This document shows, piece by piece, positions 22,005-59,365 of a DNA stretch of 64,000 nt. How positions within the stretch are numbered: the stretch's first letter is position 1; each line of letters opens with the position of its first letter. Under the pieces are notes generated by a model. The model did no database searches. It was not told the DNA's origin and saw only the letters and a list, made by a program, of their open reading frames with translations. Origin of the DNA: Eledone cirrhosa (Eukaryota); contig OZ024741.1 in NCBI GenBank assembly GCA_964016885.1, positions 164,052,001-164,116,000 on the forward strand, given 5' to 3'. The position numbers and the translations under genes were made by a program.

Positions 22005-22435
22005 TAAGCAACAAATACATACTTTCCACATAATTGGAAATGTTTCTTTTGAACTGGTTACAAAAGCAACATTATATCTAAGTGTGTGAGCAGGTTTGAC
22101 GCTGTGTTTGGTTTGGGTATAAATTTGTTACATGGTTGTATCTTATTGATTTACTTACATTTCAGAGGTGAGGAACCGGATGAAAAGCTTGTGTAACATA
22201 ACTACACGGAAGACTACGATCAAATTTTGCTTCTCTCGCCCATGAATAATACTTAATACTATATAATTTTTATCTTCTCTCTTTTGTTATTATTGGTTAT
22301 GTTATATATATACATAAATATATATATATATATACGTACATACATATATGTATACAAACGTACAGTAGTATGTATATACATACATACATAATAAATATAT
22401 ATCAAATATATAAGAACCGTAGAGCAAATACATAC

Positions 22436-22493
<58 letters not shown>

Positions 22494-22595
22494 ATACATA
22501 CTACTGTACGTCTGTATACATATATGTATCTACGTATACATACTTATATTTAAGTATCAGCCGTACTAAGAGTGAGAAATGAAATTTCATTTTTT

Positions 22596-22643
<48 letters not shown>

Positions 22644-44000: not shown

Positions 44001-45509
44001 TGTTATCCTGTGTCTATGTGCTGTGTCTAAAGAATGATTACGGAAGTTGTGATGGCTGTTGAAGTGTGGATGTCTCTTATAGTTGTATTGGCCCCTGCTG
44101 TTGTTGTAAGATGGTGTGCAGCTGTGGTGGTTGTTGAGTTTAGGTTGTATCGTGTGTTGTATTGAGCCCTGCTGATGTTGTTGTAGGGTGTGTAGATTTG
44201 ATGGACGTGGTTATAGGGTGTGAAGTTGTGGTGGTTGTTGAAGTTGGGTTGTATCGTGTGGTTGTGTTGAGCACTGCTGTTGTTGTAGTGTGTGTAGACT
44301 TGGTGGTAGTTGTAGTAGGGTTGTCTTGTGTGGTCATATTGAGTCCTGTTGTTGCTGTTATATGTTGTGTAGCTATGGTGGTTGTAGTGGTTAGGGTGTC
44401 TCGTGTGGTTGTATTGTTCCCTGCTGGTGTTGTTGTAGTAGGATGTGGTTAGTGTGGGGGGGGGTAGATTAGGGTTTCCTTATAGCTGGTGTGTGGTTGT
44501 GAGGCCCTGTGTGACATGTGTCGTAGTTGTGTATTTTGGGTTCTATGTTGGAAGTAATGATGGTTGTGGGTTTGTTGTGTGGGGATGTTAGGGGGGTTGT
44601 AAGTGTGGGGGGTTTTATGGTTTCTCCTGGTAAGAGAGAAGTTGTAGTGTCTATCTTGTAGCTGATGTTTCTCTATTACTATATTTGTTTCTTGGGAGTC
44701 CGTGTGGTAGTTATGTGGTGTAGGAGGTAGGGGAGAGGTGATGCCTTCTTTTGTTGGTATGTGGAGAGGTATTGTTTTTTGTTGTTGTTGGTTGTTGTGT
44801 GTTGTTTGGGTCTTGATTGAGTTTTCTTGTTATTATGGTTTTAATGAAGGGGTTCTTGGGTGTGTGTTCTTTTTGGAAAAGTGTTTCATAGTTAGAGAAC
44901 CAGGTTTCGTTTATTTCCCAGTGTTGAAGGGATTTTAATTCTTCCTTATTACAGTCCTCTAACATAATTTTGAAATATTTTCTAGGGTGGTGTCTTTGGT
45001 TATATTGATAATTGCTAGATTAATCTCATCGTCGATTGATTTGATCCTATCTTCATTTGCTTGGGCTCTCAATTTAAGGAGTTCAATTTCGGTTTTTATG
45101 TTATTAAGTGCCATTCTTTCCCTGATGTGTCTTTGTGTCTCTGGTTCGTTTGGGATGGATTTAATTTGTAGTTTGCAGGGGATGATTAATGGGGATGAGT
45201 CAATCCATTTTTCATAGATCTCCGCTTTGTTATTGTTTTGTATCATCTTCCAAAAGGAGAATTTCCTGTTTTTAAGAGATGTGTACCATTGTGGTATTAA
45301 TTTGAAACCGGTAATAGACAATAATTAAATATATAAATAGATAAATGAATGCCATTGTTAAATAATAAATAAATCAACTAATACCTTAACACTTCACACA
45401 AAGTAAAACATTTCGTTTTAATCATTTTCTAACCCAGAAAAAAGAGAGAGAGAAACAAAAAAGGAAAAAAAAATATTTTTCTTCCTAATAATCGTCTCTT
45501 TCTCCCTGT

Positions 45510-45520
<11 letters not shown>
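41055..45520 (-). mobile_element. Near-full-length Penelope-like element (Neptune-like Cys linker) with inverted terminal duplication
   Basis: VNLTS..LSKGLKFTPTP, KEADKG, LRPII, FDVINLY, GTAMG, RYLDD, CGRPNCGIC, LIY..YIGQT; at least one in-frame TAA (42937) and a frameshift (~42480); 45303-45515 is the inverse of 41058-41270; (TA)n flanks. Confidence 0.93.
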
Positions 45521-45559
<39 letters not shown>

Positions 45560-56136: not shown

Positions 56137-58383
<2,247 letters not shown>

Positions 58384-58464
58384 CATATATATATATATAC
58401 AGAAATTACTATTACTACATACATACATACATACATATATATATATATAAATATATATATAATA

Positions 58465-59018
58465 CGTACATATATATATGTGTGCATGTATGTATGTATA
58501 TACATACTACTGTACGTCTGTATAAATATATGTATGTACGTATACATACTTATATTTAAGTATCAGCCGTACTAAGAGTGAGAAATGAAATTTCATTTTT
58601 TCCCTTTATCGTTTTCGATACGCCCAGCCGACTAACTCACTCGATATGCAAATTAGGCTGCTCAGCATAAGGAAAGTATATACTTTCAAACGTTCAATCG
58701 ACTGACAGAAAGGTATACGGTGCTGATGACAGCTATTAAGCTAGAAACTAGTTCATCGTTCCTTTGTCAGTGTTGAACAAAATGGCAACGATGGTTGCCG
58801 AACACTGTACGGCTAATAATTCGGGCTGTTTGTTTACAAACACACCGAGCATTATAATACATGTTCGGTAAACCTATCCGTACATATATATATATGTGCA
58901 TGTATGTATGTATATACATACTACTGTACGTCTGTATACATATATGTATGTACGTATACATACTTATATTTAAGTATCAGCCGTACTAAGAGTGAGAAAT
59001 GAAATTTCATTTTTTCCA
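58465..59018 (+). mobile_element. Non-coding HHR element with 414-nt tandem period
   Basis: 58465-58603 repeated at 58879-59018; HHR between them; the same tail occurs at ~22480-22598. Confidence 0.7.
58717..58759 (+). ncRNA. Type I hammerhead ribozyme
   Basis: ACGGTG-CTGATGA-CAGCT(atta)AGCTA-GAAA-CTAG-TT-CATCGT; palindromic ACTAGT stem III. Confidence 0.8.
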
Positions 59019-59254
59019 TATATATATACACACACATATATATATATATTAGAAAGTGAGGGTTTTTTTACAAAATGAAAAATAACCGAGGTGTCCTACA
59101 CGAGTGAAAGTATAAAGAAAAAAAGATTAAATCGAAAATGCAACTGGAGTCTTATTTTTAAAAAAATATATATATTTATTTGGTTCCTTTACCGGTTTTG
59201 CAGTTCTTCTGCTTTTCAAAAGTAGAGTTGAGATGGAGGGTCTGTGGTTTTTCT

Positions 59255-59365
<111 letters not shown>

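What the first reader, a model, noticed from the sequence alone, without database searches (positions are those of the whole stretch)
58465..59018. 414-nt monomer with a hammerhead: candidate non-LTR retrozyme
Seen: a 1.3-mer tandem (58465-58603 = 58879-59018) containing one well-formed HHR (58717-58759) and no coding capacity. The tail alone, with a partial inverted copy, is at 22330-22598. Known: animal non-LTR retrozymes are tandem monomers of a few hundred nt with type I HHRs that yield circular RNAs. Inference: a new family of this kind.
Basis: partly seen in the sequence, partly recalled or inferred. Interest (0 to 1): 0.74.

Follow-up and report, generated by a model that had tools for sequence, protein, structure and literature searches.

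The report
Hammerhead retrozyme with Penelope insertion footprint
This is one copy of a small non-coding repeat that carries a hammerhead (predicted self-cutting RNA) motif and sits, with tens of thousands of relatives, in TA microsatellites as tandem or back-to-back arms ending at two fixed points, a footprint shared with this genome's Penelope-like retrotransposons, whose enzymes likely copy it from a circular or multimeric RNA.

Summary
Confirmed. 58465-59023 is a 1.35-mer of a non-coding ~425-bp unit (414 bp in this copy) with one canonical type I hammerhead. The genome holds 1,479 exact matches to its core, 45 tandem pairs and arrays of up to ~4 units. Related hammerheads (21,972 matches) lie in sister families 60-83% identical, with arrays of up to 31 hammerheads and compensatory stem changes. 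Insertions end at two fixed sites 51 nt apart, mostly in (TA)n. Back-to-back insertions have the tail on exactly one arm (32 of 35; sisters 24 of 24), as does a coding PLE family here (7 of 7). Both arms share template variants. Best reading: a non-LTR retrozyme likely mobilised in trans by a TA-targeting PLE protein. This copy has one ribozyme, so it is probably a dead end. RNA, cleavage, circularity and the helper are unshown, and long arrays are mosaics, not one circle rolled repeatedly. The class is known. The scan noted the same footprint before on other DNA, in this and other genomes.

The parts
58465..58878 (+). One full unit (414 bp; family ~425 bp, 11 nt deleted at about 58666), 5' end joined to (TA)n inside the unit's own TA-rich hairpin
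   Evidence: 93% identity to the best other copies
58879..59023 (+). Partial second unit running to the fixed 'tail' terminus (unit position 145), followed by (TA)n
58717..58759 (+). Type I hammerhead: helix I 6 bp, helix II 4 bp with C.A at the base and a 6-nt loop (this copy UAUUAA, family UAAUAA), palindromic CUAG helix III, predicted cleavage after GUU at 58753
58692..58778 (+). Predicted long stem that extends helix I beyond an internal loop; covaries across sister families
   Evidence: z -2.99; helices 1-2
58973..59023 (+). 51-nt tail between the two fixed termini (short end TTTA|AG at 58972, tail end at 59023); holds a 16-bp palindrome at 58997-59012. Internal copy at 58559-58609
58640..58675 (+). 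Predicted hairpin with ATGCAAAT (58646-58653), conserved in all families examined; damaged in this copy by the 11-nt deletion
58347..58464 (.). (TA)n-rich target microsatellite, left flank
59024..59048 (.). (TA)n-rich target microsatellite, right flank
22330..22390 (-). Second insertion of the family: short inverted arm ending about 10 nt before the short terminus, in (TA)n
22480..22603 (+). Second insertion: direct arm ending at the tail terminus, in (TA)n; no hammerhead
59049..59259 (-). Neighbour, not part of the element: 3' end (tail terminus, damaged hammerhead) of a coding PLE family in the same TA tract; a candidate helper family
   Evidence: 92% identity to the pLTR of L238, whose 938-aa ORF has RT and GIY-YIG domains

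Best explanation
This is a 5'-truncated, single-ribozyme copy of a non-coding, hammerhead-bearing repeat family (a non-LTR retrozyme) that is likely pasted into (TA)n microsatellites in trans by the reverse transcriptase-endonuclease of a Penelope-like element. Shown: the unit, the clan, the tandem arrays, two fixed 3' termini 51 nt apart, back-to-back arms with the tail on one arm only, shared template variants within an insertion, and the same footprint in a coding PLE family of this genome. Inferred cycle: (1) a source locus with two or more hammerheads is transcribed; (2) the hammerheads, whose 2-bp palindromic helix III is too weak alone, cleave as dimers and release ~425-nt monomers or short multimers, which would be ligated to circles; (3) a PLE protein dimer binds the tail hairpin and nicks both strands of a (TA)n target; (4) one DNA end starts reverse transcription at the tail end and the other 51 nt upstream, both on the same template, perhaps helped by pairing of ..TA-3' with the UUUA at each start; (5) synthesis runs past the unit boundary, giving more-than-unit arms; (6) joining of the two cDNA ends gives a head-to-head insertion, or a direct one if one arm is lost. 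The window copy is a direct, tail-ended product with one ribozyme and two lesions, so it is probably a dead end.
For: Copy number: 766 exact matches to the 33-nt HHR pattern and 1,479 to the 17-nt core, 0 for the reversed controls. 45 direct HHR pairs at 407-437 bp spacing, including runs of 3 and 4; arrays of 1,486-1,673 bp. Termini: 127 of 154 3' ends fall at unit position 84-99 or 132-146; 86 of those 127 are followed by TA-rich sequence, against 4 of 27 other ends and 10 of 46 5' flanks. Of 103 insertions 54 are head-to-head; of the 35 with both ends classifiable, 32 pair a short end with a tail end (expected 50%, p=2e-7). Sister families: 24 of 24 classifiable, of 30 inverted, plus the 31-HHR array. 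Coding PLE family L238 (938-aa RT + GIY-YIG ORF between two 99% identical pLTRs): two termini 63 nt apart, 29 of 34 in TA, 7 of 7 complete inverted pairs mixed (read by eye). One template per insertion: the 2-nt indel marker agrees in 56 of 61 tandem pairs and 49 of 54 opposite-arm pairs, against 0.51 expected. Rare non-CpG substitutions are shared 0.35 per 100 nt between opposite arms and 0.23 between tandem neighbours, against 0.038 between loci; the two marker subfamilies are of similar age, 2.6% and 2.9%. Ribozyme fold: 92.9% of cells paired, 9 of 22 pairs with changes on both sides, 0 of 500 shuffles reach the covariation score, slid controls 32-49% paired. Cleavage triplets seen are GUU, GUA and GUC. 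Circular folds have z -6.2 (window unit) to -12.7, GC 35-37%. PMC11167929 shows in vitro that a PLE protein nicks and extends both strands of AT-rich DNA from two internal RNA start sites that delimit the tail.
Against: No expression, cleavage or circularity data were obtained. No helper was identified by sequence: neither blastn nor an HMM of five units (best hits only in the TA-rich part) links the unit to any of 7 PLE terminal regions. Long sister arrays carry recurring shared variants without significant periodicity (30 units, permutation p 0.34; 14 units, p 0.34), so they were not made by rolling one monomer circle. Marker-discordant neighbours exist (5 of 61 tandem, 5 of 54 opposite-arm). 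The alignment has 7 related sequences from about three lineages, so the double-sided changes are few independent events, and the count of pairs with such changes was not above shuffles (148 of 500). Loci were picked by best hit or motif, not at random, and 19 of 54 inverted insertions had an unclassifiable end. The C.A mismatch and the GUU triplet may make this family a slow cleaver (recall). PMC11167929 found HHR cleavage unnecessary for PLE insertion in vitro and no start-site difference between strands, and 10.64898/2026.07.22.740005 saw cleavage in only 1 of 9 dimers tested.
Confidence: 0.82

Rival explanations
1. The unit is the pLTR (3' end) of a coding PLE not yet seen, and the copies are ordinary 5'-truncated PLE insertions.
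For: The insertion architecture is identical to PLEs (PMC8557442). Most PLE copies are short 3' fragments. The tblastn queries were only six PLE fragments from the window, so a distant PLE could be missed. In L147 a GIY-YIG fragment abuts a sister unit on the opposite strand, unresolved.
Against: Copies longer than one unit continue into the next unit in circular order, up to 3.9 units here and 31 HHRs in a sister family. In 99 loci the nearest same-strand upstream PLE coding hit is 1,085 bp or more away. Of 50 GIY-YIG loci none carried this HHR type in a pLTR; in L249 a family copy follows an unrelated pLTR across a TA tract.
Confidence: 0.07
2. It is a PLE-mobilised non-autonomous element copied from linear read-through multimeric RNA. 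The hammerhead is slow or dispensable and no circular RNA takes part; long arrays are inherited from, or expanded at, parent arrays.
For: Mosaic recurring variants in long arrays. Weak-looking catalytic features in this family. HHR mutants did not affect PLE insertion in vitro (PMC11167929). Marker concordance also fits two units of one linear multimer or two RNAs from one locus.
Against: The ribozyme fold is kept by double-sided changes across families ~60% identical, and the whole monomer folds as a stable closed structure in all five units tested plus the window unit. Animal retrozymes tested in coral, mussel and axolotl gave circles (PMC7229834).
Confidence: 0.3
3. It is a satellite or minisatellite spread by DNA-level recombination, with a chance hammerhead-like motif.
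For: The unit has a TA-rich segment, and long arrays show local amplification patterns.
Against: Dispersed copies on both strands of many chromosomes, fixed 3' and variable 5' ends, the one-sided tail rule, and covariation.
Confidence: 0.02

Closest known systems
Metazoan non-LTR retrozymes (Cervera and de la Pena 2020, PMC7229834; Li, Clavereau and Pollet 2026, 10.64898/2026.07.22.740005)
   Same: Non-coding monomer of a few hundred bp, GC under 45%, canonical type I HHR with weak palindromic helix III, monomers to long tandem arrays, strongly self-paired predicted circle; a mismatch at the base of helix II as in axolotl HHR_Amex2; PLEs proposed as helpers.
   Different: New sequence clan with no Rfam hit. 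Most copies of this family are dispersed 1-2-mers. In the passages read, those papers do not describe fixed dual termini, a one-sided tail, head-to-head arms or (TA)n targeting. No pLTR homologue was found here, whereas Li et al. found PLE homology for about 24 of 57 Xenopus families. RNA not shown here.
Endonuclease-bearing Penelope-like elements (Penelope/Poseidon, Neptune, Nematis, Naiad; PMC8557442, PMC4209133, PMC11167929)
   Same: 5' truncation, partial tandems, inverted 5' copy, tail at one end, AT-rich or (TA)n targets, type I HHR near the end.
   Different: No ORF. The repeating unit is ~0.43 kb rather than 3-5 kb. The tail is 51-69 nt rather than 30-40. The HHR is canonical (6-bp helix I, 4-bp helix II), not the minimal PLE type.
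Non-autonomous Chlamys PLEs such as MRC1 (PMC8557442, passage)
   Same: Non-coding, head-to-tail multicopy insertions made by a PLE helper.
   Different: Those resemble their autonomous partners at the 3' end and belong to a clade described as lacking canonical HHRs; here the HHR is present and no partner homology was found.

Membership tests
Metazoan non-LTR retrozyme | Type I hammerhead in the repeat unit | tested here: met
Metazoan non-LTR retrozyme | [quoted passage not shown] | tested here: met
   45 direct HHR pairs, runs of 3 and 4; sister arrays up to 31 HHRs
Metazoan non-LTR retrozyme | 'Active' locus criterion of Li et al. 2026 (two HHR units) for the window copy itself | tested here: not met
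   one HHR only; it counts as a monomer derivative of the family
Metazoan non-LTR retrozyme | No coding capacity and no LTR-flanked internal region | tested here: met
   no ORF of 120 aa or more; units follow each other directly; PBS/PPT motifs were not searched
Metazoan non-LTR retrozyme | Low GC and strongly self-paired predicted circular RNA | tested here: met
   GC 0.35-0.37, circular MFE z -6.2 to -12.7 against 30 shuffles each; prediction only
Metazoan non-LTR retrozyme | Expressed as unit-length linear and circular RNA | not testable with these tools
   no RNA run was available to lay
Metazoan non-LTR retrozyme | Self-cleavage in vitro (monomer or dimer) | not testable with these tools
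   needs bench work
Metazoan non-LTR retrozyme | Target-site duplications longer than 4 bp when present | tested here: inconclusive
   flanks are (TA)n, where a duplication cannot be read
Autonomous PLE (or its pLTR fragment) | RT + GIY-YIG ORF between or upstream of the terminal repeats | tested here: not met
   0 of 99 loci; queries limited to six window PLE fragments
Autonomous PLE (or its pLTR fragment) | Partial tandem and inverted 5'-truncated structure | tested here: met
   54 of 103 insertions head-to-head
Autonomous PLE (or its pLTR fragment) | Tail between two RT start sites, present at one end | tested here: met
   32 of 35, 24 of 24
Autonomous PLE (or its pLTR fragment) | Sequence homology to a pLTR of a coding family | tested here: inconclusive
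   none among 7 PLE terminal regions, 30 RT loci and 50 GIY-YIG loci; the genome's PLE families were not sampled exhaustively

The most novel reading that the evidence does not exclude
One small hammerhead-processed RNA circle (or closed short multimer) is copied from both nicked DNA ends at once by the two active sites of a PLE protein dimer, one starting on each side of a conserved tail hairpin and each able to run past unit length. The retrozyme would recruit the enzyme by structural mimicry of the tail, without pLTR homology. This would explain in one step the tandem arms, the inversion, the one-sided tail and the shared variants, and it makes a ~430-nt RNA a minimal substrate for solving the PLE integration mechanism.
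Probability: 0.35. Interest if true: 0.72.

Novelty: new member of a known kind. Interest (0 to 1): 0.52.

Why it matters
That animal retrozymes are moved by Penelope-like elements has rested on co-occurrence and pLTR similarity. Here the integration footprint itself (two fixed starts, tail on one arm, (TA)n target) is the same in a non-coding ribozyme clan of more than 20,000 hammerheads and in an apparently intact coding PLE of the same genome. That supplies a candidate enzyme and a short template for an in vitro test. The strict pairing of one short end with one tail end, and the sharing of rare variants between arms, constrain how PLE insertions are made, which is still an open question. 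The class itself is known and the window copy is probably inactive.

Tried and rejected
Rfam scan of the window: 0 hits. RNA evidence: no RNA holder listed; the three runs laid are contigs of one sample of unrecorded type and say nothing on expression. Helper search: tblastn of locus flanks with six window PLE fragments, an RT search of the genome (30 loci read), a GIY-YIG search (30 loci plus 20 of the longest-ORF hits read), blastn and nhmmer of units against PLE terminal regions: no homologous pLTR. The idea that 5' flanks of non-inverted copies hide arms copied from the helper's RNA was tested on 46 copies and not supported; only separate neighbouring insertions and a few missed short arms were seen. 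One search (conserved hairpin motif, 6,339 matches) listed only sister-family places and did not reveal a helper. 'One monomer circle rolled many times' was rejected for long arrays. An unconstrained two-molecule fold of the HHR did not give the catalytic dimer; MFE folding does not model the core, so this was not counted. The low mismatch rate in the HHR core was not used, because loci were chosen by that motif. Repeated 5' ends at unit position ~201 in early tables were an artefact of the window copy's deletion. The supplement of PMC7229834 could not be read and may list related mollusc repeats or target sites.

Full report
Observation. The window lies at G000:C2:164,052,001-164,116,000 of a 3.0-Gb, 1,796-contig animal genome. 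That it is an octopod is my guess from its size and repeats; it was not tested. The hammerhead at 58717-58759 has a 6-bp helix I, CUGAUGA, a helix II with a C.A base and a 6-nt loop, GAAA, a palindromic A-CUAG-U helix III and a GUU triplet. My descriptor found 2 motifs in the window and none in 50 shuffles. Rfam gave no hit. No ORF of 120 aa or more overlaps it. The piece at 22330-22603 is a second, hammerhead-less insertion with a short inverted arm and a tail-ended direct arm.

Family. A DNA search gave 60 matches from 40 scored candidates of 4,740, the best other copies at 92-93% identity. Exact patterns gave 766 (33 nt) and 1,479 (17 nt) matches, with 0 for the reversed controls. The family unit is ~425 bp; the window copy lacks 11 nt and has a changed loop 2. 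45 pairs of same-strand hammerheads lie 407-437 bp apart, including one run of four and two of three. The longest arrays read are 1,486-1,673 bp. Most copies are therefore dispersed 1-2-mers.

Clan. A looser pattern that excludes this family found 21,972 matches, control 0; only the first 100 places were listed. They belong to sister families of 466-538 bp: one 83% identical to this unit, others about 60%, aligned over the whole monomer. One array holds 31 hammerheads, its units differing by 0.5% on average. On a 7-sequence alignment my hammerhead-plus-extension structure is 92.9% paired, with 9 of 22 pairs changed on both sides. No shuffle of 500 reached the covariation score, and slid controls fell to 32-49%. 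These sequences represent about three lineages, and the number of pairs with double changes was not above shuffles (148 of 500). All five representative units and the window unit fold as circles far below shuffles (z -6.2 to -12.7); this is prediction only.

Insertion anatomy. I dropped 11 of 110 loci as the same genomic place and classified 103 insertions in the remaining 99: 54 head-to-head, 46 direct, 3 other. 127 of 154 3' ends fall at one of two sites 51 nt apart (unit positions ~94 and ~145), while 5' ends scatter. 86 of those 127 are followed by TA-rich sequence. Of 54 inverted insertions, 35 had both ends classifiable: 32 short+tail, 2 short+short, 1 tail+tail (p=2e-7); 19 had an eroded or interrupted end. 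In 47 sister-family loci, 30 insertions were inverted, 24 classifiable, all short+tail; the 31-HHR array follows the same rule. Both termini sit at conserved T-rich motifs ending in A or AT, around a predicted hairpin. Loci were chosen by score or motif, so the proportions are not genome-wide estimates.

One template per insertion. Three subfamily markers agree within insertions far above chance: the indel in 56 of 61 tandem and 49 of 54 opposite-arm pairs, expected 0.51; the two substitutions in 42 of 47 and 31 of 35, and in 54 of 67 and 43 of 51. Rare non-CpG substitutions are shared about nine times more often between opposite arms than between loci, and the subfamilies are of similar age (pairs are not fully independent, and gene conversion between arms is not excluded). 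This fits one RNA primed twice, or two RNAs from one source. Against the simplest rolling-circle picture, long sister arrays are mosaics of recurring variants with no significant period. Multimeric templates, template jumps or later local expansion must therefore contribute.

Not a pLTR fragment. The genome is rich in coding PLEs (150 scored hits each). L238 is an apparently intact one: a 938-aa ORF with RT and GIY-YIG domains between two 99% identical pLTRs with a U3-A8 hammerhead. Its family shows the same footprint: two termini 63 nt apart, 29 of 34 in TA, and 7 of 7 complete inverted pairs mixed (pairs read by eye; two pairs cut by locus ends and one duplicate left out). One of its 3' ends sits 25 bp from our element, at 59049-59259. 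A second, Neptune-like family in the window also has a short end and an optional tail; the clade label rests on the linker CxxC motif described in PMC8557442 and was not tested by a tree. None of these shares sequence with the unit, so the helper is inferred from architecture, not homology.

Literature. PMC7229834 (passages; parts 2 and 4 of 6; supplement unreadable) defines non-LTR retrozymes, shows circles in coral, mussel and axolotl, and proposes PLE helpers. 10.64898/2026.07.22.740005 (parts 1-3 of 5) supports a PLE origin by co-occurrence and pLTR similarity, and found cleavage in 1 of 9 dimers. PMC4209133 (parts 1-2 of 4) gives the canonical and minimal HHR definitions and proposes circular templates. 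PMC8557442 (passages) describes inverted copies, a tail often at one end, and (TA)n bias. PMC11167929 (parts 1-2 of 4) shows two RT start sites delimiting the tail, both strands nicked and extended, a predicted dimer, and HHR cleavage dispensable in vitro. PMC5680766 (passages) names no mollusc. Six searches returned no paper on this family or on the one-sided-tail footprint in retrozymes; subscription papers and Repbase were not searchable. The scan's own notes, seen after these analyses, report the same footprint for other units in this genome and in other genomes; they are unchecked and not independent support.

Verdict. A new family, within a large clan, of a known class. It works like a PLE-mobilised non-autonomous element. 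It meets every DNA-level criterion of a non-LTR retrozyme that could be read at family level (target-site duplications cannot be read in (TA)n); the RNA-level criteria are untested. The window copy is a probable dead end. The value lies in the footprint linking retrozymes to PLE enzymes and in a ready in vitro test.

Noticed in passing
window:59049-59259 (-); L238:1279-6778 (G000:C1:145,869,500-145,877,500): 3' end of a young coding PLE family; L238 looks intact (938-aa RT + GIY-YIG ORF, two 99% identical pLTRs, U3-A8 hammerhead variant, 63-nt tail).
   Followed up: partly
window:41060-45540: Decayed near full-length Neptune-like PLE on the minus strand with an inverted arm at about 45310-45530, both ends in (TA)n; the family has at least 150 RT copies at 81-100% amino-acid identity and a U3-A8 hammerhead.
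   Followed up: partly
window:57460-58347: Another PLE insertion directly left of the finding: GIY-YIG fragment on the minus strand (57608-58150) with an opposite arm carrying a U3-A8 hammerhead at about 58200. Three PLE-type insertions share this TA tract.
   Followed up: partly
window:35511 (-), 31850 (-), 60640 (-), 18070 (+), approximate: Further hammerhead-like motifs, three of them in the 3' regions of PLE fragments of other families.
   Followed up: no
G000:C1:5,738,325-5,752,445 (L171, L172): Very young 31-hammerhead array (units 99.5% identical) with a short inverted arm; its variants recur in an irregular mosaic.
   Followed up: partly
window:58646-58653: ATGCAAAT inside a hairpin conserved in all families examined, about 30 nt before a TATA-like stretch. 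It equals the octamer promoter element (recall), so it could be an internal promoter as well as an RNA hairpin.
   Followed up: no
L147:1012-1215: A GIY-YIG C-terminal fragment abuts the 5' end of a sister-family unit on the opposite strand with no TA between; either an old target or a chimeric insertion.
   Followed up: partly
L004:1233, L019:3158, L023:262, L082:2331; L053:1906, L092:120, L093:1258; L009:2894, L108:1103: At least three more recurrent hammerhead families with long helix II in locus flanks.
   Followed up: no
window:38475-40832 (+): LINE-type reverse transcriptase fragment with a 635-aa open frame (RTE-like by recall, not tested).
   Followed up: no
window:23180-24057: 24-bp minisatellite, 36.6 copies, 98% matches, open in several frames.
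   Followed up: no
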